Source of the DNA: Fibrobacter succinogenes
Lineage (GTDB): Bacteria > Fibrobacterota > Fibrobacteria > Fibrobacterales > Fibrobacteraceae
Direction: 5' to 3'
DNA length: 64,000 bases
NCBI GenBank assembly: GCA_902800815.1
Contig: CADCGB010000017.1
Span: 46,520-110,519 of the forward strand
Shown piece by piece: positions 43,984-53,235 of this stretch. The notes beneath the pieces are model-generated. The model was not told the origin of the DNA and searched no databases. It saw nothing but the letters and a program-made list of their open reading frames with translations. Made by a program: the position numbers and the translations under genes. The first letter of the stretch is position 1. Each line of letters opens with the position of its first letter.

Positions 43984-45612
43984 ATGAAAATTCCTTTCTT
44001 TAAGCCATTACTTGTTGCAGGCGCACTGGTGATCGCCTGGAACTGCTCTGATGAAGCAGCAATTACTGTCCCCACCACTCCGCAGGGTGCCGAACAGTTT
44101 GCCGCTGTCACTACCCCTAGCTGGATTTTCAACGGCGACCAGACCTACATCATCACGCCGACCGAAGCAGGGTTCTTCGTTGCAGACAAGGCGGGCAACC
44201 CCGTCGGCACATACGATCCGGCATTGGGCATCGTTTACGATGGCGCACTCACACCCATTGCGACCATCCCGGACCTCTCGCAGCTCCCGGTACTTACCCC
44301 GGACCAGACGATTATCAACCCCGATGGCACGATTACGGACCTGGCAGGCAACCCCATCGTCCAGCCCGTTGACCCGGTCCCGGGTGGCGAAGTCGTCGAA
44401 GACCCGAATCCGGTCACCCCGGACCCGGTAATTACCAGTTCGGATACTCCGGTCATCCCGGAATCTTCCGCAACAACCAACCCCGAGGAGCCAAAGCCCA
44501 CCTCGTCTGCCACTCCTGAACAGCCGAAGTCTTCCTCCTCTGCCAAGCAGGAGCAGCCGAAGTCTTCCGCGACACCCGCCAACACAAATTGTGACGGCCA
44601 GTGCCTCGATGCACCGTCGGGCACATGCGTCGCCTACTACCAGAGCCTTAAGGGCCCCCACCAGGAACAGTACGCCTACGACAAGACCTGCAACATCAAC
44701 TGCTACTACGACCCGAACAACAAAAATTGCCAGGATATGGGAGCGGGAACGGCTCAACCTTCGAGCAGCACCACCCAGCCCAAGTCCTCGAGCAGCGCAA
44801 AGTCTAGTTCCTCTGCAAAATCCTCGAGCAGTGCAAAGTCTAGCTCCAGCGTTGCACCCAAGTCTTCCAGCAGCTCGCAGCAGCCGTTGACCGGCGGATG
44901 CCCGAACATCGTTGTCAAGAACGGCGGCAAAACCGGATCCGGCTGGGCCACCCGTTACTGGGACTGCTGCAAGCCCCACTGCTCTGTGCAAAACAATACC
45001 TCTTACCATTCCAAGCAGTGCACCAACAAGGGTACAACCGAAAGCACCGACTGGGGCGCAGGGAGCGTCTGCGCAGGCGGTTCGATGATGGCCTGCACAA
45101 GCCAGATTCCATTCACCATTGACGGCTGTTCCGACATGGGCTTCGCATTCGCCGCTGTACCGGCAAGTGACGGCGGTTCCTGCGGCAAGTGCTACCAGCT
45201 CACGTTTACCGGCGAAGGCCACTACAACTCCACTAACGCCAACACCAAGGCAATCAAGGGCAAGAAGCTCATCATCATGACAACGAACATCGGCGGTGAC
45301 GTGTCGCAGGGCCAGTTCGATATCATGATCCCGGGCGGTGGCGTTGGCATATTCAACGGCTGTTCCAGCATGGGCTGGGGCGCACAGGGCCAGCAGTACG
45401 GGGGCCTCCTCTCCGACTGTGAAACCGAAAGTAACTACAATGCAGGCACCTATGTCAGTTGCCTTACCGAAAAGTGCAACAAGGCGTTCAGCAACGACAG
45501 CAAGGCCAAGCAAGGTTGCATGTTCCTCGTTGAATACCTGCATGCCGCAGGCAACCCTGAGCACAACTACGTTGAAGTGGAATGCCCGCAGGTGCTGAAA
45601 GACAGATACTAA
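43984..45612 (+). CDS. GH45 endoglucanase, lipoprotein-anchored, with long P/S/T linker
   Basis: Lipobox AWNC; ATRYWDCCKPHCS, CGKCYQLTF, GQFDIMIPGGGVG; AKSSSS repeats. Confidence 0.93.
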   Translation: MKIPFFKPLLVAGALVIAWNCSDEAAITVPTTPQGAEQFAAVTTPSWIFNGDQTYIITPTEAGFFVADKAGNPVGTYDPALGIVYDGALTPIATIPDLSQLPVLTPDQTIINPDGTITDLAGNPIVQPVDPVPGGEVVEDPNPVTPDPVITSSDTPVIPESSATTNPEEPKPTSSATPEQPKSSSSAKQEQPKSSATPANTNCDGQCLDAPSGTCVAYYQSLKGPHQEQYAYDKTCNINCYYDPNNKNCQDMGAGTAQPSSSTTQPKSSSSAKSSSSAKSSSSAKSSSSVAPKSSSSSQQPLTGGCPNIVVKNGGKTGSGWATRYWDCCKPHCSVQNNTSYHSKQCTNKGTTESTDWGAGSVCAGGSMMACTSQIPFTIDGCSDMGFAFAAVPASDGGSCGKCYQLTFTGEGHYNSTNANTKAIKGKKLIIMTTNIGGDVSQGQFDIMIPGGGVGIFNGCSSMGWGAQGQQYGGLLSDCETESNYNAGTYVSCLTEKCNKAFSNDSKAKQGCMFLVEYLHAAGNPEHNYVEVECPQVLKDRY

Positions 45613-45631
45613 TCTAAAGAAATCGATCTTG

Positions 45632-45664
45632 AAAATCCCCGGCTCGACCGGGGATTTCCTTTTT
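45632..45664. terminator. Rho-independent terminator between convergent genes
   Basis: aaatccccgg-ctcga-ccggggattt followed by a T tract. Confidence 0.8.
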
Positions 45665-45699
45665 GCAAAGATACCCCGGCACTCGCCGAGGTATTTTTT

Positions 45700-46878
45700 T
45701 TAGAATAAATCACGTATAGAGAGTTTCCGCAGTTTAATGCGGATGGGAAGCGAACGCCAAAAATGCTTCCAGTATGCGACCTCCGCCCAGAACACGTCCA
45801 TCGGCGAGAACGGGCTGAACCTGATAGCACGCCAGCGCCTGCCGAACCAGCGCGTAACGAAAGACCTGTACTCGACCTTGTAATAGAATCCGAAGTTTCC
45901 GCCCTCAAGGATTACCCCGAGCATCCACTTGCCATAGCGTTCATTGGGTTCGCAGAGCATGCGATCGCGTTCGAGCCCGTAAATATGCCCCAGCACCCAC
46001 ATCAGCGCCTTGGTCACACGTAGCAAGCCAAAACTACGGAGATTCTTCGCAATCTCTAGCCGTTCACTATCGCTCGCCTGCTGCAAAAGCACGTAATAGT
46101 CAGTTATCTGCTTCAGGCCGATACCGCCTGCCATAAAGTGCGTCTGGATATGCGCCAACTGCATCGCAAGCGCAAACCTGAGCGAGGGAACGTAGAAGCC
46201 CTCCGGCACAAGTTCAAGGTTCTCGATCTCGGCATCGAGAAAGCGCATTATTCGTTTGTCTGTAAATGGGTTACGGTTCCCTGAAGATACCAGGAAATGC
46301 GCCTCGACACACACCTTTGCGGCAGAATGAACTACGTGAACATGATGCTTCGACACGCAGAGTTTCCTGCGGGCCTCGGCATAAAGCTCCTCGCGGGTCT
46401 TCTTGTGGCCGGGTACCGCAGGAGCGTCCTTTTCCAGCAAGTCCATGCTGTCCAGGAGTCCCACGACAGCATCGCGCCCGCCACTGATCCAGATGTCGAT
46501 ATCCCCGCACTGTCGCATAAACTTGTCCGGGTACAGGCGCGCGTTTGCCGCACCCTTCAGGATGGCAGTCCGCCTCCCCTGGCCCGCAAAAAGTTCCGTG
46601 AGCCGCTTGGCCTCGTCGTTCACCATACGGTTATGCCCGCGGATAGCCTCCGCCTCGCTCGCCCACTGGAAGGCCAGGTCCAACGGCGGCCGCCGGTCCT
46701 TCGGGAGTTTGCAAATACCCGCATAGGCAATGCCAACAACAGCAAGCTTGGACGCCAAGGAATACAAAAGAGACCACTCTTCAGCGGTCTCTACGTTGAA
46801 ATTTGCAAACTCATCCTTACCCGCACCGAATGCGAGCCGAATGAGAGTAAAGAGATTACGTTCAGACAGAATACTCAC
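45700..46878 (-). CDS. Nucleotidyltransferase family protein (NTP_transf_5-like)
   Basis: ILKGAANARLYP...RQCGDIDIW, CVEAHF, HFMAGGIGLKQITDY; GTG start overlaps the TAG of the upstream peptide. Confidence 0.85.
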   Translation of the reverse strand: MSILSERNLFTLIRLAFGAGKDEFANFNVETAEEWSLLYSLASKLAVVGIAYAGICKLPKDRRPPLDLAFQWASEAEAIRGHNRMVNDEAKRLTELFAGQGRRTAILKGAANARLYPDKFMRQCGDIDIWISGGRDAVVGLLDSMDLLEKDAPAVPGHKKTREELYAEARRKLCVSKHHVHVVHSAAKVCVEAHFLVSSGNRNPFTDKRIMRFLDAEIENLELVPEGFYVPSLRFALAMQLAHIQTHFMAGGIGLKQITDYYVLLQQASDSERLEIAKNLRSFGLLRVTKALMWVLGHIYGLERDRMLCEPNERYGKWMLGVILEGGNFGFYYKVEYRSFVTRWFGRRWRAIRFSPFSPMDVFWAEVAYWKHFWRSLPIRIKLRKLSIRDLF

Positions 46879-47024
46879 TAAACCTGAACAGGCGTATCAT
46901 TCGGATTATCGTTATAATTCAGAATAATCGTATTAGAATCAATAAGCAACAAATCACTCTTATTCCGAAGCGAAATGACTCTTACTGATGGAGCCTCATA
47001 TTCTTTTTTTTGAATAAACACCAT
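46878..47024 (-). CDS. 48-aa peptide with YxxP leader-like motif (absent from the ORF track)
   Basis: Hand translation MVFIQKKEYEAPSVRVISLRNKSDLLLIDSNTIILNYNDNPNDTPVQV*; AAAGG upstream; stop overlaps the next start. Confidence 0.75.
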   Translation of the reverse strand: MVFIQKKEYEAPSVRVISLRNKSDLLLIDSNTIILNYNDNPNDTPVQV

Positions 47025-47042
47025 ATTCAAGCCTTTATAGTT

Positions 47043-47168
47043 TTATGGTGTCTGAACTTCAATTTCATCAGGGCAAGAACCGTCACAACTACCACATAAA
47101 GGTTTTAAATCGGAAGCAATTTTAACAACCTTCATTTCCGGCTTTTCATAAGTTTTCTTTTCATCCAT
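47043..47168 (-). CDS. 41-aa Cys-containing peptide with YxxP leader-like motif (absent from the ORF track)
   Basis: Hand translation MDEKKTYEKPEMKVVKIASDLKPLCGSCDGSCPDEIEVQTP*; GAGG RBS; starts 6 nt after the stop of the large upstream gene. Confidence 0.8.
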   Translation of the reverse strand: MDEKKTYEKPEMKVVKIASDLKPLCGSCDGSCPDEIEVQTP

Positions 47169-47174
47169 GGTATT

Positions 47175-50100
47175 TTACCTCACAATTATGCGCTTACCAT
47201 TATAGTAATATGTACCCTGGGTCGTTGGCTTGCCGTTGAGTTTACGACCACTTAAATCGTACCAGCGATCCATTTTTAGTTCGCCAGTTTTGGAATTCAA
47301 CACACCTCCACCAATAACTCGACCATTTTTCCCAACAATTTCAATTTCGAATTCTTCCGGAAGTGTACTCAAATCAGCAAAACGTTCAACCAATCTAGAC
47401 GATTTCGTTAGCACCTTAGATTCGTCATAAACAAGGTACGCACGCATCGGCAGAACAGCCGCTGGCTGGTTTTTATTTTTAATTCTAAAGAACTTCCCTA
47501 TCGTCAATCCCTTTGTCGGATTTTCTATACCAGAATACCCATATGCATAATCCCATTCTGGATGATCTTCATTTATAACGACCGTTTCATAAGATCCTTT
47601 AAAAACCCAGCCATTATATACAACCTGTTCTGGCTCTTTTGTAATTAATGAAACAGGTTTATCCAAAACAAAGTTTATGTTTGTTTCAGAAGGAAGATAA
47701 ACATAGGGACGACCCGCTTTTAATTCATTTCCATCAGGCACCTTAACAATAAATTTCCATTTTCCCGTGGAATTATCAATCGATTCAAATTCCCAGAAAT
47801 CACCACACTTAGATTTACCACATTGAACTTCATTCAAACTAACTGTAAACGGGAACATAACCGTTGACATAGCATTTACAGTAAATGTACGATTGAAAAT
47901 CACATGGTCTACAACTACATTGTCGCTCTCAGGAATACTAACATCTTCTTGATTAGAGCTTTCGTTATTGATTTCAGCACGAGTACCAGTTTCATCCGTA
48001 TAAATCGTAACTGCTCCATACGGAACGGCCTTTGCCACAACAGAGATCGACCCATCAACAATCGTGAGTTCCGTAAACAGGTTCGTCACATCGGTGCCAG
48101 ATTCATTCTTAATGGTCACAGCACAAGTTGACGTGACATTACCATCAGCGACCTTATGCACACTTCCGCTGGGGTCCATTTCAATAGAATAGCCTACCGG
48201 AAGAGTCCCCTCACGAGAACATTCAGCATTGTGAATTTTGCCATCATATTCAAACGTGCCAGAACCTGCCGTAACCGTTATCGGCAACAGAGACCACTGT
48301 GCAGTAAGCGTCCTATCACCAGAAGAATTAGCCGGGAATGCATCTGTCAGCACATCACCAGTCTCGCTGTCAAGCCACCCTACGAACGAATATCCAACCC
48401 TTGCATTCGGAGTAGCAAGAGGAAGTTCGCCTGATTCCATAGTAAACGTGAAGGATTCATCACCATCCATTGAACCTCCATTGGGATCGTACTCTACCGT
48501 GTAGGTACTGATTACCCAATGCGGGTAGAGGGTAATGTCAGCGTTTTCTGTGTACGGGCTGCTCACGATATCGCCATTTGCATTCTCCCAGCCATCCTGC
48601 GTGTAGCCGGAGCGGGTGAACTTTTCGCTGGAAAGTTCAAAATCCACATCATGGGTCTTCGTACCTGCCGCAACAGCGCCTTCACCGAAGTCTCCTGCAT
48701 TATAGGTAACCGTGTAAGCAGGAACCCAACGCGGAATGAGTGTAACATCGGCATCTACATCAAATGCAGCACCAAGATCATACTCTATAGTTTCATCATT
48801 GGTGGTATAGATCCAGCCATTCTGGACATAACCATCGCGAGTGAACACCTCAGTAGAAAGCAGAAGATTGGCTCCATAGGCTTTCGTTGCAGAAGCTACA
48901 TTACCATCACCATATTCGCCACCATTATACGTAATCGTAAATGTTTGCGATGTCCAATATGGATATAAAATTAAATCTGCATTATCTGTATACTTCGAAT
49001 TAAGTGCAAGAAAACCATCAGAACCATCGTCCTTTGTACTCCAGCCACCTTGGATATATCCTGTTCTCGTATAGGAAACACCCCTTAATGTATATTCTTC
49101 ATTGTGAATCTTTTTCTCAGAAGGAACAAGTCCAATTCCATAAGTTCCCGCTCTATATGTAATCTCATAAGTAATCAATTTCCATTCTGCATAAAGCGTA
49201 ATGTTTTCTGTTAAACCAGCAGGAATGCTTGTTTTCTTATCCTTAAATTCAGGATCTGTATACCAGCCCAAGAAACTATGTTTTTCATCCCAAACCGGAT
49301 CAGAAAGCGTCATTCCATCAACAGTAAACTCGCCTGCATTTGAATTTGAGCATTCGTCTGAGCATTTCAGTACATAATTCACAGTATAAGAATTTTTCAC
49401 CCATTTAGCATAGAGATTAACATCTTTAGTAATAGTTTGATTAAAGTTAAACGAGGTACTTGCGCCGCGTTCAAACCACCCCTCAAAAGTATAACCTGGA
49501 TGCGGATCCATTTTATCAGTGGTCAACTCATTAGCCTTTTCATTTTCATATACAGAACTCACATACGAAGCCGTAGATGATTCGTTCTCATAGAAACGAA
49601 CTGTATAGACTGGCGCAGTAGTCCACGCAGCAACCAAGGTCATATCTCCTGCGGCAACAGGAAGATTGTCAAGTCCATATTCATCGACATAACGCACTGT
49701 GGGATCATTTCCATCCGCCCAGCCCATGAAATTATACTTTACATTTTGATCATCAATAAATGAAGTCGGTCTAGCAAAGCCCTGCACTGCTATTCTCTTT
49801 CCATTTTCAATCTTTATTGATACCGATTCAGAAGATCCATTTGGGAATGTTCCGTGCAGGTCCCCGTTAACAGGACTGAATGTAATCGTATGCATCTTGT
49901 TCCAAGATGCCGTAATCGTTGTTGCTTTTGTCGCAGTTTTATTATAATCATCACCTACCCAACCGGCGAATACATAACTATCATCGCCCCAAGTGGGATC
50001 TGCAACGCCATCATTATTGATTGTATTCCCAGCCTTTACATACTTCACAAATGTTGCTCCGCCAGCAAAGGAACCTCCATTTGCATTGAAGGTTATCTTG

Positions 50101-51155
50101 TAACCATCTGCGCCGTAGCCATTCAAGCAAATGCTGGATGCACCGGCGGACCACGGAGTACTCACAGGGCAAATTCCATTCTCAAGTTCGGCACCATTAA
50201 GAGTACAAGCTATCAGTTCCGTATTCAGTTCTGTAGTTCCAGTCGGCGAACCAGTCGTAGAGCCGCCCATAGTTCTGCCGATGGCATCGTCAAACTTTTC
50301 GCTGTCATAATAAACATCCTCAAATTCCGTTTTTCCATTGTAATGATTGCCGACAATCGCCCCAGCCTTGCCAGAACCCGTACTTGAAAGGGTATTTCCC
50401 GCATAAACACAAGAGGATATCGAAGCAACAGCACCTTTGTCAAATTCTTTTGTATAACCAACTATTCCACCAACATAAGCCGTTCCATTGGCATCGATAT
50501 CCACCGCACTATAGCAATTCGTTATCGTGCCTCCACCATTATTGCCAACAATTCCACCAACAGACTGACCATCACCACTTGTAACCATCTTACCGGTTAC
50601 ATAGCAGTTTTCAACAATACTCTCTGGGTTACTCTGCCAACCAACCACAGTACCTATAGAAAGCGGCTTTTCCACAGGATTAGCTCCTGTAGTTTTATAG
50701 TTCTTACCATATGCGTAAACTTCAACATTCTCCAAAATTACATTCTGAACATGCCCCGTAAAAGCCCCAATAAGTCCCAAGTTCTGTGCAAGTTCTGTAT
50801 CTTTAGGATATTTATTGAGAATTTCCTCTGCACTTATGTACAAATTTTTTATTATCTTGTTGTTTCCGTTAAAATGGACCTCCCTCTTCGTTCCTTTGGA
50901 CGAAATCGGAATCCAGAAATAACCATCCATATTCAAATCAGCCCTGACTTCTGCACAATACGGCGTTTGGTTCGCATTCACTTTAGCAGCAAACCAAGCC
51001 AGTTCTGCCGGAGTATAAATCTGGTAACAGTCGTTAACCTTCTCAGGATCCGTAGAACTCTTATGATCAGTCCACGGATCCATAGCAAACCCCTGCCCAA
51101 CGAGCACGAGGCAGGCCATAAAAGCTAATTTTTTGAAATTGTTTACAAAGAGCAT
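47175..51155 (-). CDS. Large secreted surface protein with GLUG-like region, InlB B-repeats and Bacteroidetes-like C-terminal domain
   Basis: Signal peptide; YQIYTPAELAWFA; VGGIVG repeats; about 8 repeats of type ITFNANGG...F.GW...LYA.W; terminal WYDLSGRKLNGKPTTQGTYYYNGKRIIVR. Confidence 0.9.
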   Translation of the reverse strand: MLFVNNFKKLAFMACLVLVGQGFAMDPWTDHKSSTDPEKVNDCYQIYTPAELAWFAAKVNANQTPYCAEVRADLNMDGYFWIPISSKGTKREVHFNGNNKIIKNLYISAEEILNKYPKDTELAQNLGLIGAFTGHVQNVILENVEVYAYGKNYKTTGANPVEKPLSIGTVVGWQSNPESIVENCYVTGKMVTSGDGQSVGGIVGNNGGGTITNCYSAVDIDANGTAYVGGIVGYTKEFDKGAVASISSCVYAGNTLSSTGSGKAGAIVGNHYNGKTEFEDVYYDSEKFDDAIGRTMGGSTTGSPTGTTELNTELIACTLNGAELENGICPVSTPWSAGASSICLNGYGADGYKITFNANGGSFAGGATFVKYVKAGNTINNDGVADPTWGDDSYVFAGWVGDDYNKTATKATTITASWNKMHTITFSPVNGDLHGTFPNGSSESVSIKIENGKRIAVQGFARPTSFIDDQNVKYNFMGWADGNDPTVRYVDEYGLDNLPVAAGDMTLVAAWTTAPVYTVRFYENESSTASYVSSVYENEKANELTTDKMDPHPGYTFEGWFERGASTSFNFNQTITKDVNLYAKWVKNSYTVNYVLKCSDECSNSNAGEFTVDGMTLSDPVWDEKHSFLGWYTDPEFKDKKTSIPAGLTENITLYAEWKLITYEITYRAGTYGIGLVPSEKKIHNEEYTLRGVSYTRTGYIQGGWSTKDDGSDGFLALNSKYTDNADLILYPYWTSQTFTITYNGGEYGDGNVASATKAYGANLLLSTEVFTRDGYVQNGWIYTTNDETIEYDLGAAFDVDADVTLIPRWVPAYTVTYNAGDFGEGAVAAGTKTHDVDFELSSEKFTRSGYTQDGWENANGDIVSSPYTENADITLYPHWVISTYTVEYDPNGGSMDGDESFTFTMESGELPLATPNARVGYSFVGWLDSETGDVLTDAFPANSSGDRTLTAQWSLLPITVTAGSGTFEYDGKIHNAECSREGTLPVGYSIEMDPSGSVHKVADGNVTSTCAVTIKNESGTDVTNLFTELTIVDGSISVVAKAVPYGAVTIYTDETGTRAEINNESSNQEDVSIPESDNVVVDHVIFNRTFTVNAMSTVMFPFTVSLNEVQCGKSKCGDFWEFESIDNSTGKWKFIVKVPDGNELKAGRPYVYLPSETNINFVLDKPVSLITKEPEQVVYNGWVFKGSYETVVINEDHPEWDYAYGYSGIENPTKGLTIGKFFRIKNKNQPAAVLPMRAYLVYDESKVLTKSSRLVERFADLSTLPEEFEIEIVGKNGRVIGGGVLNSKTGELKMDRWYDLSGRKLNGKPTTQGTYYYNGKRIIVR

Positions 51156-51465
51156 ACTTTACCCCCGTTTTTGCTTAAATTTAGTTAAAATTGCCATTTT
51201 TTGCAATTAGTTTGTAAACAATGCAAAATTTTGTTGACCAACTTCACACAATCACTAGGAAATCGGTAGGAAAAAAAGTATACAAATGGCTACAAAACCA
51301 CATTTCCCCTGCCAAAAATGTGATTTTCGTCAAATTTCGCCACTTTTGTTTCATACAAATGGCCATTTGCCCAAAATTTGCGCAAGACGCTTTCACGGCG
51401 AAAAAAGAGCCTAGTCGCCCACTATTTTTTCTACATTTTTCAAAAAATTTCAAAAAGGATATATT

Positions 51466-53235
51466 ATGCCGAAACTTCGTTCGCTCAAGACTATGGAAGG
51501 CCGCGAAATGGCCGGTGCACGCGCCCTTTGGCACGCAACAGGAACCAAGGTGGAAGACTTTGGCAAGCCGGTGATTTGCGTGGTGAACAGCTATACCCAG
51601 TTTGTTCCGGGACACGTTCACCTGAAGGACTTGGGCCAGGTGGTCGCCCGCGCGATCGAAGCCGCCGGCGGTGTCGCGAAGGAAATGAACACCATCGCCG
51701 TGGATGACGGTATCGCCATGGGCCACGACGGCATGCTCTACAGCCTCCCCAGCCGCGACCTCATTGCCGACTCCACCGAATACATGGCTAACGCCCACCG
51801 CGCCGACGCCCTCGTGTGCATCAGTAACTGCGACAAGGTGACTCCGGGTATGCTCATGGCCGCCATGCGCCTCAACATTCCGGCAATTTTCGTCAGCGGC
51901 GGCCCCATGGAAGCCGGCCACGTGACCACGAAGGACGGCAAGGACCGCGCCCTCGACCTGATTGATGCCATGATTGATTCCGCTGACAACACCATCAGCG
52001 ACGAAGAAGTGGCCGCCATCGAAGCGAACTCCTGCCCCACTTGCGGTTCCTGCTCCGGCATGTTCACCGCGAACTCCATGAACTCCTTGACCGAAGCCCT
52101 CGGCCTCAGCCTCCCGGGCAACGGCACCATCGTCGCGACCCACGCCGAACGCAAGAAGCTGTTCGAAGCTGCCGGTAAGCGCATCGTGGAACTCTGCCAC
52201 CAGTATTACGATTTGAACGACGAAAGCATCCTCCCGCGCAGCATCGCCACGAAGGACGCCTTCGAAAACGCCATGCGCCTCCACCATGAAGGACATCGAC
52301 CGCCTCTCCCGCAACACGCCGTGCATCTGCAAGGTTGCCCCGACCGTCCACAACATCCACGTGGAAAACGTGAACCGCGCCGGTGGCATCATGGGCATCA
52401 TGGGCGAACTCGACCGCATGGGCCTCATCCACAAGAATGCAAAGACAGTTCACGCCGCTACGATGGGCGAAGCCCTCGAAGTGAACGACCTCAAGCGTAA
52501 CCCGACAGCCGAAGCCAAGCAGCGCTACCTCGCCGGCCCGGGCCGCAAGTACAACCTGGTCGCCTTCTCGCAGAACTTCATGTACCCGGATCACGATCTC
52601 GACCGCGCCAATGGCGCTATCCGCGACGGCGAACACGCCTACACCAAGGACGGCGGCCTCGCTGTTCTGTACGGTAACCTCGCCGTGGACGGCTGCATCG
52701 TGAAGACCGCAGGCGTCGACGAATCCATCTTCAAGTTCACCGGCCCCGCCGTGGTGTTCGAAAGCCAGGAAGATGCCGTGAAGGGCATTCTCGACCCGAA
52801 CGTGGTGAAGTTATCCGCTACGAAGGCCCGAAGGGTGGCCCCGGCATGCAGGAAATGCTCTACCCGACCTCTTACCTCAAGAGCCGTCACCTCGGCAAGT
52901 CCTGCGCCCTCCTCACCGACGGACGCTTCTCCGGCGGTACGAGCGGTCTTTCCATCGGTCACGCTTCTCCGGAAGCCGCCAACAAGGGTAACATCGGCCT
53001 GGTGCACACGGGCGACGTCATCGAAATCGACATCCCGAACCGCAGCATCAACGTGCAGCTCACCGACGAAGAGCTGGCCGAACGCCGCAAGGAAATGGAA
53101 GCCCGCGGCGCCAAGGCATGGCAGCCGGAACACCGCGACCGCGTAGTGTCCAAGGCATTGCAGGCATATGCCGCCATGGCATCTAGCGCAGACAAGGGTG
53201 CCGTGCGTGACCTTTCCCTCATTGGTGTGAAGTAA
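51466..53235 (+). pseudogene. ilvD: Dihydroxy-acid dehydratase split into three frames by two short deletions
   Basis: [27 protein letters not shown] in frame 1; junctions at about 52281 (GGSTN segment missing) and about 52810; [24 protein letters not shown] in frame 3. Confidence 0.85.

What the first reader, a model, noticed from the sequence alone, without database searches (positions are those of the whole stretch)
45700..51155. Two unannotated YxxP-leader peptides between a surface adhesin and a nucleotidyltransferase: RiPP-like module
Seen: the apparent 296-bp gap at 46879-47174 holds two tandem minus-strand ORFs, MDEKKTYEKPEMKVVKIASDLKPLCGSCDGSCPDEIEVQTP (47043-47168) and MVFIQKKEYEAPSVRVISLRNKSDLLLIDSNTIILNYNDNPNDTPVQV (46878-47024). 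Both share KKxYExPx(M/V)(K/R)V(V/I)x(I/L) and an L-L/C-x-x-S junction followed by unrelated acidic tails, one of them with CGSCDGSC. The first has a GAGG RBS in the end of the adhesin gene; the second's TAG overlaps the GTG of the NTP_transf_5-like gene. Established: YxxP is a leader motif read by RiPP recognition elements, and nucleotidyltransferases of this type occur in lasso-peptide clusters. Inference: conserved-leader/variable-core precursors modified by the nucleotidyltransferase or by enzymes encoded in trans, perhaps for signalling or adhesin maturation.
Basis: partly seen in the sequence, partly recalled or inferred. Interest (0 to 1): 0.85.

Follow-up and report, generated by a model that had tools for sequence, protein, structure and literature searches.

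The report
Adhesin-linked phosphopeptide precursors in Fibrobacter
The two small genes are real precursors of a ribosomal peptide pathway (binding protein, kinase, trimming protease, exporter, nucleotidyltransferase) first described in 2026 and then only in Bacillota; here, in Fibrobacter and Prevotellaceae, each precursor gene follows the gene of a secreted adhesin, which hints at what these peptides are for.

Summary
P1 (47043-47168) and P2 (46878-47024) are genuine coding genes of a large, unnamed peptide family: KKxYxxPx(M/L)xVVxL…LLxxS followed by a variable acidic tail.

The RiPP reading is supported. In eight of twelve other Fibrobacter genomes the nucleotidyltransferase gene directly adjoins an HprK-like kinase gene, and fetched loci show the full cluster with a Ser/His/Asp signal-peptidase-like protease, a PqqD recognition protein and an ABC exporter. 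In this genome that four-gene cassette lies 73 kb away, outside the window. No lasso cyclase or B2 protease is present.

This enzyme set and the YxxP…Ser precursor layout match the linear polyphosphorylated peptides (LPP, lppA-K-B-S-D-N; Popov et al. 2026), which were reported as restricted to Bacillota.

Three things are new:
- The peptides' tightest partner is not the nucleotidyltransferase. It is a ~280-residue C-terminal "X" domain of the upstream adhesin (68 of 76 peptides in 12 genomes).
- Genomes carry up to 26 dispersed precursors but only one or two processing cassettes.
- Adhesin and peptides swap as one hypervariable unit between near-identical strains.

I could not test the chemistry or any expression evidence.

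The parts
47175..51155 (-). Secreted adhesin-like protein, 1326 aa: signal peptide, GLUG motif, seven Listeria-Bacteroides repeats, and a C-terminal X domain
   Evidence: ORF. Pfam Flg_new E 1e-42 and Glug E 3e-4.
47175..48032 (-). X domain: the last ~285 residues of the adhesin, all-beta, with no known family. It is the feature that peptide genes follow.
   Evidence: - It is homologous to the whole mature 314-aa protein of the second module (E 2e-24).
- It occurs only twice in the genome, both times directly before peptides.
- In 12 genomes, 54 of 61 X domains are followed by a peptide within 400 bp.
- AF2 model pLDDT is 82, with no significant PDB match.
- No Pfam or NCBIfam hit.
47043..47168 (-). 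P1, a class-a precursor. Predicted leader MDEKKTYEKPEMKVVKIASDLKPL; predicted core CGSCDGSCPDEIEVQTP, with Ser3 as the predicted phospho-acceptor.
   Evidence: E 5e-15. The tail type (D/E)-I/V-(D/E)-V is shared with first-position peptides of other loci. The cleavage and phospho-site assignment is by analogy with LppA.
46878..47024 (-). P2, a class-b-like precursor. Predicted leader MVFIQKKEYEAPSVRVISLRNKSDLLL; predicted core IDSNTIILNYNDNPNDTPVQV. Its stop codon overlaps the start of the nucleotidyltransferase gene.
   Evidence: E 2e-14. An alternative TTG start lies at 47030.
45700..46878 (-). PF14907 nucleotidyltransferase, the LppN-like tailoring enzyme. Catalytic GDIDIW motif.
   Evidence: - Pfam E 9e-41.
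- G125, D126 and D128 are invariant in 32 homologues.
- AF2 pLDDT is 90.7; the best PDB fold matches are pol-beta-type nucleotidyltransferases, MenT1 at E 5.5e-4.
45633..45657 (.). Perfect 10-bp-stem palindrome between the convergent ends of the nucleotidyltransferase gene and the next gene; probably a two-way terminator and the end of the operon.
   Evidence: The site count does not exceed shuffles, so this rests on position only.

Best explanation
P1 and P2 are precursor peptides of an LPP-type (linear phosphopeptide) RiPP pathway. This is a Fibrobacter/Prevotellaceae variant in which precursor genes ride behind adhesin genes.

Proposed steps:
1. The adhesin, P1, P2 and the nucleotidyltransferase are co-transcribed. 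This is inferred from 6-18-bp gaps, a 1-bp overlap and no intervening terminator.
2. The single PqqD-family protein of the genome (contig C17:17224-17490, outside the window) binds the KKxYxxPx(M/L) leader as a beta-strand, as lasso B1 and LppB do. Inferred from homology.
3. The HprK-like P-loop kinase (C17:15894-16781) phosphorylates the invariant Ser of LLxxS, probably several times. Inferred by analogy with LppK acting on Ser3 of LppA.
4. The soluble Ser/His/Asp signal-peptidase-like protease (C17:16778-17227) removes the leader a few residues before that Ser, most simply after LL. Inferred.
5. The PF14907 nucleotidyltransferase adds a further group to the phosphate. This is speculative: the chemistry is unknown even for LppN.
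6. The MsbA-like ABC protein (C17:17466-19169) exports the product. Inferred.
7. The small polyanionic product, with a cassette-specific tail, then acts together with the X domain of the adhesin encoded just upstream.

The genetic coupling in step 7 is shown. The nature of the interaction is not.
For: **Family and coding status**
-.

**Full cluster in relatives**
- X-adhesin / peptide(s) / PF14907 / HprK-like / S24-SpI-like / PqqD / ABC is contiguous in L004, L006, L007, L009, L010, L011 and L015.
- PqqD is PF05402, E 7e-14.
- Peptidase_S24 scores E 2e-5, above the Pfam cutoff. The best NCBIfam match is archaeal-type signal peptidase I, below its cutoff.
- The kinase matches ScmC (2e-8), HprK_rel_A (8e-5) and Hpr_kinase_C (0.007), all below their cutoffs, and has Walker A GKSGTGKS.
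- The exporter has ABC_membrane plus ABC_tran.
- Ser30, His68 and Asp83 of the protease are invariant. LppS needs S29, H68 and D93.

**Phyletic pattern in 13 Fibrobacter genomes**
- Twelve have peptides, X domains, the nucleotidyltransferase, one PqqD and one kinase.
- One genome (G070) lacks all five.

**No lasso machinery**
- No B2 protease and no cyclase.

**Match to the published LPP system**
- LPP has the same gene set.
- Its precursor motif is YxxPxVLxHQxIxFETxxS, with Ser3 polyphosphorylated and the leader cut by the SpI-like LppS only when presented by the RRE.

**PDB matches**
- The only PDB matches of the peptide profile and of the PqqD protein are the two chains of one co-crystal. 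These are the TfuA leader (EKKKYTAPQL, E 0.18) and TfuB1 (E 0.14) in 6JX3.

**Adhesin coupling**
-.
- L010 and L011 are 94-95% identical in the flanks, the nucleotidyltransferase and the processing genes, but unalignable across adhesin plus peptides.
- The same arrangement is seen in Prevotellaceae.
Against:
- Kinase family matches are weak and below curated cutoffs.
- The Tyr-to-Ser spacing is 20 residues (21 in P2) against 18 in LppA. The residues before the predicted cut are L-L, not F-E-T, so the cleavage site is a guess.
- LppS, LppB and LppN sequences could not be retrieved, so homology to the characterised proteins is shown only through shared families and catalytic residues.
- In this genome the processing cassette is 73 kb away, so its action on P1 and P2 is inferred from co-occurrence.
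- The PDB matches are individually insignificant.
- Gene adjacency does not prove a physical peptide-adhesin interaction.
Confidence: 0.75

Rival explanations
1. The peptides are not exported natural products. They would be cytoplasmic or periplasmic helpers, such as chaperones, secretion adaptors or assembly factors, dedicated to the X-domain adhesin encoded upstream. The kinase/protease/PqqD/ABC cassette would then serve adhesin biogenesis.
For: - The adjacency between X domain and peptide is 1:1 or 1:2 in 68 of 76 cases, including Prevotellaceae.
- Cassettes swap as a unit.
- X domains occur nowhere else in this genome.
Against: - The leader carries the RRE-binding motif.
- The whole enzyme set, including an exporter, equals that of a pathway shown to process and phosphorylate a peptide.
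- The adhesins have ordinary N-terminal signal peptides, so they do not obviously need a peptide helper.
- This reading overlaps with the main explanation rather than excluding it.
Confidence: 0.12
2. They are lasso-peptide precursors whose cyclase and B2 protease lie elsewhere.
For: - The YxxPx(L/M) motif and KK before the Tyr match lasso leaders; the best PDB hit is the fusilassin leader.
- The PqqD protein scores on lasso PqqD models (E 2e-5 and 1e-4, below cutoff).
- PF14907-type enzymes occur in lasso clusters.
Against: - No PF13471 (B2) match anywhere in the genome.
- The only Asn_synthase match is a weak partial hit on another contig.
- No Thr at the penultimate leader position.
- Several cores have no Asp or Glu at positions 7-9 in a suitable context.
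- An SpI-like protease sits where B2 would be.
Confidence: 0.03
3. They are upstream ORFs or leader peptides that only regulate translation of the nucleotidyltransferase gene, or chance ORFs in an intergenic gap.
For: The P2 stop overlaps the nucleotidyltransferase start. No gene was called here in a public assembly.
Against: - Eighty per cent of family members in other genomes have no nucleotidyltransferase gene after them.
- The protein sequence is conserved across Fibrobacter and Prevotellaceae while synonymous sites are saturated.
- At least 288 database clusters belong to the family.
Confidence: 0.02
4. They are double-glycine-type bacteriocin or pheromone precursors, cut and exported by a peptidase-containing ABC transporter.
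For: Short peptides with a conserved N-terminal region, a variable C-terminal part, a small residue at the junction, and an ABC exporter in the cluster.
Against: - The ABC protein has only ABC_membrane and ABC_tran domains, with no C39 peptidase domain.
- The junction is LLxxS, not GG, GA or GS.
- A separate SpI-like protease and a PqqD protein are present.
Confidence: 0.03

Closest known systems
Linear polyphosphorylated peptides (LPP), lppA-K-B-S-D-N of Paenibacillus alginolyticus DSM5050 (Popov et al., Nat Commun 2026, PMC13381572)
   Same: - Same six functions: precursor, HprK-like kinase, discrete PqqD-type RRE, soluble archaeal-type signal-peptidase-like leader protease with Ser/His/Asp, MsbA-like exporter, and an uncharacterised NTP transferase.
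- No cyclase.
- Precursors have a conserved N-terminal YxxP…Ser region and variable C-termini, with 1-3 precursor genes per cluster.
- Found near polysaccharide loci; the second module of this genome abuts genes that look like an exopolysaccharide locus.
   Different: - Different phyla: Fibrobacterota and Bacteroidota, whereas LPP was stated to be restricted to Bacillota.
- Different junction: …LLxxS with Tyr-to-Ser spacing of 20, against FETxxS with spacing of 18.
- Different gene order: A-N-K-S-B-D.
- Precursors are short (36-60 aa) and dispersed in up to 12 (Fibrobacter) or 26 (Prevotellaceae) copies per genome, against one or two processing cassettes.
- Nearly every precursor gene follows an X-domain adhesin gene.
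- Two to three nucleotidyltransferase paralogues per genome.
- The cluster is split in this genome.
Phosphorylated or phosphoglycosylated lasso peptides (paeninodin PadeK; pseudomycoidin PsmK/PsmN)
   Same: HprK-like kinase acting on a Ser of the precursor, PqqD B1 protein, nucleotidyltransferase tailoring enzyme, ABC exporter, and a Y/WxxPxL leader motif.
   Different: No lasso cyclase or B2 cysteine protease is present. The candidate phospho-Ser is near the N-terminus of the core, not at the C-terminus.
Fusilassin leader-RRE complex TfuA/TfuB1 (PDB 6JX3)
   Same: The leader segment EKKKYTAPQL is nearly the family consensus eKKeYxAPxM. The RRE is the best PDB match of the PqqD protein here.
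   Different: Both matches are weak (E 0.14-0.18). Fusilassin is an actinobacterial lasso peptide.
SipW-type (ER/archaeal-type) signal peptidase I of Bacillus subtilis
   Same: The best NCBIfam match of the protease is sigpep_I_arch. It has the GxSMxP Ser and a His rather than a Lys general base.
   Different: The protein has no membrane anchor and is only 141-150 aa. It is encoded with a PqqD protein, so it is a cytoplasmic leader peptidase rather than a secretory signal peptidase.

Membership tests
LPP (linear polyphosphorylated peptide) RiPP family | Precursor with an N-terminal [Y]xxPx[V/L] RRE-binding motif | tested here: met
   Y and P are invariant in 27 aligned peptides, followed by x-(M/L/V). 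P1 has YEKPEM and P2 has YEAPSV.
LPP (linear polyphosphorylated peptide) RiPP family | Conserved Ser shortly after the leader end (Ser3 of the core, 18 residues after the Tyr) within YxxPxVLxHQxIxFETxxS | tested here: inconclusive
   A near-invariant Ser exists (LLxxS), but it lies 20-21 residues after the Tyr and the intervening consensus differs. The layout is the same but the motif is different.
LPP (linear polyphosphorylated peptide) RiPP family | Discrete PqqD-type RRE protein | tested here: met
   PF05402 E 7e-14 for the L010 homologue. There is one copy per genome; here it lies at C17:17224-17490.
LPP (linear polyphosphorylated peptide) RiPP family | SpI-like (archaeal-type signal peptidase) leader protease with a Ser/His/Asp triad | tested here: met
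   Peptidase_S24 scores 24.8 bits, above the 23.3-bit cutoff. sigpep_I_arch scores E 5e-7, below its cutoff. Ser30, His68 and Asp83 are invariant, against S29, H68 and D93 in LppS.
LPP (linear polyphosphorylated peptide) RiPP family | HprK-like kinase | tested here: inconclusive
   Only sub-threshold matches: ScmC 2e-8, HprK_rel_A 8e-5, Hpr_kinase_C 0.007. The Walker A motif GKSGTGKS is present.
LPP (linear polyphosphorylated peptide) RiPP family | MsbA-like ABC exporter and an uncharacterised NTP transferase in the core set | tested here: met
   ABC_membrane plus ABC_tran and MsbA-type NCBIfam matches. PF14907 scores E 9e-41. The paper does not state whether LppN itself is PF14907.
LPP (linear polyphosphorylated peptide) RiPP family | Polyphosphorylation of the core Ser and RRE-dependent leader cleavage | not testable with these tools
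   This needs mass spectrometry or in vitro assays.
LPP (linear polyphosphorylated peptide) RiPP family | Direct sequence homology to LppS, LppB, LppK and LppN of P. alginolyticus | not tested
   The reference sequences were not retrievable with the tools. PDB entries 9x8z and 9x90 did not appear among matches.
Lasso peptides | Macrolactam synthetase (Asn-synthase-like C protein) and B2 transglutaminase-like protease | tested here: not met
   PF13471 has no match in the genome. PF00733 gives only a weak partial hit on contig C7.
Double-glycine leader peptides with a peptidase-containing ABC transporter | C39 peptidase domain on the exporter and a GG-type cleavage site | tested here: not met
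   The exporter has no peptidase domain. The junction is LLxxS.
T9SS cargo (the adhesin C-terminus as a Por secretion tail) | Match to PF18962 / TIGR04183 C-terminal sorting domain models | tested here: not met
   No hit at E up to 10 for the last 90 or 285 residues of six proteins. The ending …YDLxGRKLxxKPxxxGxYxxNGKKVIIK only looks similar by eye.

The most novel reading that the evidence does not exclude
In Fibrobacter and Prevotellaceae, LPP-type phosphopeptides may not be free natural products. They may instead be cognate partners of a family of secreted adhesins. Each X-domain adhesin would bring its own one or two precursors, and a single cellular machine would phosphorylate, trim and export them all. 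The polyanionic product, with its cassette-specific tail, would then bind the basic X domain at the cell surface to anchor, gate or give strain specificity to that adhesin. Adhesin and peptide would diversify together as one exchangeable cassette. This would give LPP peptides their first biological role. It would also explain the 'precursor-less' LPP-like cassettes seen in Bacteroidales.
Probability: 0.25. Interest if true: 0.85.

Novelty: new variant of a known kind. Interest (0 to 1): 0.66.

Why it matters
- The LPP family was described only in May 2026. Its final product and biological role are unknown, and it was reported as confined to Bacillota.
- This locus shows a related system in two other phyla of rumen and gut bacteria.
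- It identifies the precursor genes, which are easily missed: they are 36-60 codons long, often uncalled, and usually far from the enzymes.
- It gives a concrete functional lead. The precursors are tied almost one-to-one to a new C-terminal domain of large surface adhesins in organisms whose ecology depends on adhesion to plant fibre.
- That lead makes the open question of what LPPs do directly testable.

Tried and rejected
- **Regex scan.** A plain regex for the motif missed about a third of family members; the profile search recovered them.
- **Literature.** Searches for PF14907 and NTP_transf_5 gave nothing useful.
- **X-domain fold.** The PDB fold search gave no significant match. The nucleotidyltransferase model matched only generic pol-beta-type enzymes.
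- **T9SS tail.** The T9SS C-terminal domain reading was tested and not met.
- **Other readings.** The lasso, double-glycine and upstream-ORF readings were rejected.
- **Promoter and terminator scan.** It gave counts at shuffle level.
- **Protease database search.** The hits listed among more than 7000 matches carried only generic names, none from Bacillota, so it did not link the protein directly to LppS.
- **Complex prediction.** Both structure-prediction jobs went on single proteins, so no peptide-protein complex could be modelled.
Full report
**The observation**

The minus strand between the adhesin gene (47175-51155) and the PF14907 gene (45700-46878) holds two ORFs exactly as reported.
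- P1 is 47043-47168: MDEKKTYEKPEMKVVKIASDLKPLCGSCDGSCPDEIEVQTP.
- P2 is 46878-47024: MVFIQKKEYEAPSVRVISLRNKSDLLLIDSNTIILNYNDNPNDTPVQV.
- The GAGG before P1 and the one-base TAG/GTG overlap at 46878 are both there.
- Pfam confirms NTP_transf_5 (E 9e-41) and an adhesin-like protein with Listeria-Bacteroides repeats and GLUG.
- Neither peptide matches any Pfam or NCBIfam model.
- In a public contig identical over this locus, no gene is called in the gap.

**They are real genes of a real family**

The window's genome (3.15 Mb, 64 contigs; the window is C17:46520-110519) has a second PF14907 gene on contig C35, 39% identical. It too is preceded by a peptide: MKFYWEKKEYKAPKLSVLDMRGESCLLAGSGEGPDADEYDDEFGFNLNKGADRIA.

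- A profile built from 22 such peptides finds only these three ORFs in the six-frame translation of the genome (E 2e-14 to 3e-16; next best 0.5).
- In 37 loci fetched through the nucleotidyltransferase (Fibrobacter, Prevotella, other Bacteroidales), 1-3 peptides of the same kind lie before the enzyme gene in 18, all Fibrobacter loci plus one labelled Prevotella. A 19th locus (Prevotella) carries one after it.
- The consensus is KKxYxAPx(M/L)xVVxL-5x-LLxxS followed by a variable acidic tail. Tyr and Pro are invariant.
- Synonymous differences are near saturation (pS 0.4-0.97) while pN is 0.03-0.47. pN/pS is below 1 in 34 of 35 pairs.
- The protein database holds at least 288 clusters of the family. 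All named ones are 'hypothetical protein' from Fibrobacter, none with a domain.

Two tail classes recur.
- Class a comes first in a pair and ends …(D/E)(I/V)(D/E)(V/F)(I/V)…. P1, with DEIEVQTP, belongs here.
- Class b comes next to the enzyme and ends …G(F/L)xxxxxx(D/N)xxA. P2 is a divergent member.
- In three database entries the two are fused in one frame.

**The rest of the pathway**

In Prevotella loci L016 and L017 the gene after the nucleotidyltransferase is a PqqD protein, followed by a peptide gene cut by the contig end.

Homologues of that PqqD protein lie 1.3 kb after the enzyme gene in seven loci. The full order there is X-adhesin, peptide(s), PF14907, a 295-aa HprK-like P-loop protein, a 145-aa S24/signal-peptidase-like protein, PqqD, an ABC exporter, and often DUF5662.

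In the window's genome the last four core genes form an overlapping operon at C17:15894-19169. That is 73 kb from the enzyme gene and outside the window.
- The protease has invariant Ser30 (in GRSMLP), His68 and Asp83.
- The kinase-like protein has Walker A GKSGTGKS, but only sub-threshold family matches.
- The genome has no lasso B2 protease and no cyclase-like Asn synthase near any of these genes.

**What it corresponds to**

Earlier notes of this scan on other genomes pointed to a 2026 paper, which I then read.

Popov et al. describe linear polyphosphorylated peptides (LPP), cluster lppA-K-B-S-D-N.
- The precursor consensus is YxxPxVLxHQxIxFETxxS.
- The discrete RRE LppB binds the YxxP segment.
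- The HprK-like LppK puts several phosphates on Ser3 of the core.
- The SpI-like LppS (S29, H68, D93) cuts after T-1, but only when LppB presents the leader.
- LppD exports the product.
- Deleting LppN, an uncharacterised NTP transferase, had no visible effect.
- The final product and biological role are unknown.
- The clusters lie in capsule loci, and the family is said to be restricted to Bacillota.

The gene set here is the same and the precursor layout is parallel. By analogy, the invariant Ser of LLxxS is the phospho-acceptor and the leader is cut a few residues before it.

The spacing (20-21 residues against 18) and the residues before the cut (LL against FET) differ, so the exact cleavage site is uncertain.

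One independent but weak pointer comes from the PDB. The only matches of the peptide profile and of the PqqD protein are the two chains of a single lasso leader-RRE co-crystal, 6JX3.

**What is different: the adhesin link**

The last ~285 residues of the 1326-aa adhesin are homologous to the whole mature 314-aa protein that precedes the C35 peptide (E 2e-24). I call this the X domain.
- It occurs only twice in the genome, both times directly before peptides.
- Every fetched locus that has peptides has an X domain immediately upstream.

I then searched 12 other genomes of the family (11 Fibrobacter, one of another genus).
- I found 76 peptides in 61 loci: 46 single and 15 tandem pairs.
- 68 of the 76 lie within 400 bp after the end of an X-domain gene on the same strand.
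- 54 of 61 X domains are followed by a peptide.
- Only 15 peptides precede a nucleotidyltransferase gene, and only 10 of 22 such genes are preceded by a peptide.
- Each genome with peptides has exactly one PqqD gene and one kinase gene.
- In 8 of 12 genomes these directly adjoin a nucleotidyltransferase gene.
- One genome (G070) lacks all five components.

L010 and L011 come from closely related strains. Their flanks, nucleotidyltransferase and processing genes are 94-95% identical in DNA. The adhesin and both peptides cannot be aligned. So adhesin plus peptides form an exchangeable, hypervariable unit.

The same architecture holds in Prevotellaceae.
- Genomes there have up to 26 dispersed family members, such as MKKKEYERPTMQVVQLKQQPQLLAGS…DYEDGVFSWEEE.
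- These again sit just after large proteins that match the X profile and end …YYDLQGRRV..KGLYIVNGKKVIIK.
- There are one or two K-S-B-D cassettes per genome, 50-60% identical to the Fibrobacter ones.

The X domain has no Pfam or NCBIfam match, including the T9SS tail models. Its AF2 model (pLDDT 82) has no significant PDB match.

**Interpretation and confidence**

- I am confident that P1 and P2 are translated precursors handled by an RRE-dependent pathway of the LPP type.
- The individual steps (binding, phosphorylation of the conserved Ser, cleavage, export) are inferred by homology and co-occurrence. None is shown.
- The role of the PF14907 enzyme is unknown even in the reference system.
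- The genetic coupling to X-domain adhesins is shown. What the peptide does for the adhesin is speculation; options include an anchor, a ligand or strain-specific recognition.

**Verdict**

- The system is a new variant of a kind known since 2026. It is notable for its phyla, its dispersed multi-copy precursors and its adhesin pairing.

Noticed in passing
window 52281 (ilvD, 51466-53235 +): An ENA contig is 100% identical to the window from 45001 to 52281. At that point the window lacks about 72 bp (some 24 conserved ilvD residues, with a frame change). Identity beyond it drops to 90.5%. This looks like an assembly join between strains rather than a biological frameshift.
   Followed up: partly
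L001 (genome contig C35) 5061-16000: The second X-protein/peptide/nucleotidyltransferase module sits at the end of a same-strand run of genes. By eye these look like an exopolysaccharide locus (chain-length regulator, flippase, polymerase, glycosyltransferases). This echoes the capsule-locus context reported for LPP clusters. No family search was run on them.
   Followed up: no
P0001-P0003 (database proteins): In some metagenomic contigs the class-a and class-b peptides are read as one 89-90-aa protein with no stop between them. This is either a natural fusion of the two precursors or readthrough.
   Followed up: no
L010 11388-11930; also L007, L011, L015: A DUF5662 gene (E 7e-35) directly follows the ABC exporter in four Fibrobacter clusters. 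It is 92-99% conserved, more than its neighbours. Its role is unknown.
   Followed up: no
L016 and L017, contig ends near 8825 and 8899: Two independent Prevotella assemblies both break at or inside the peptide gene that follows PqqD. This would fit a repeated (multi-copy) leader sequence confounding assembly.
   Followed up: no
window 43984-45612 (+): A convergent 542-aa secreted protein with long Ser-rich linkers and a Cys-rich C-terminal domain carrying a TRYWDCCKPHC motif. It has no precomputed Pfam hit in the public gene call. It looks like a small endoglucanase or expansin-type module but was not tested.
   Followed up: no
(database search with the SpI-like protease): More than 7000 database clusters match the soluble SpI-like protease at E <= 1e-3. 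Some are misnamed 'LexA repressor'. The pathway is therefore very common in gut and rumen metagenomes.
   Followed up: no
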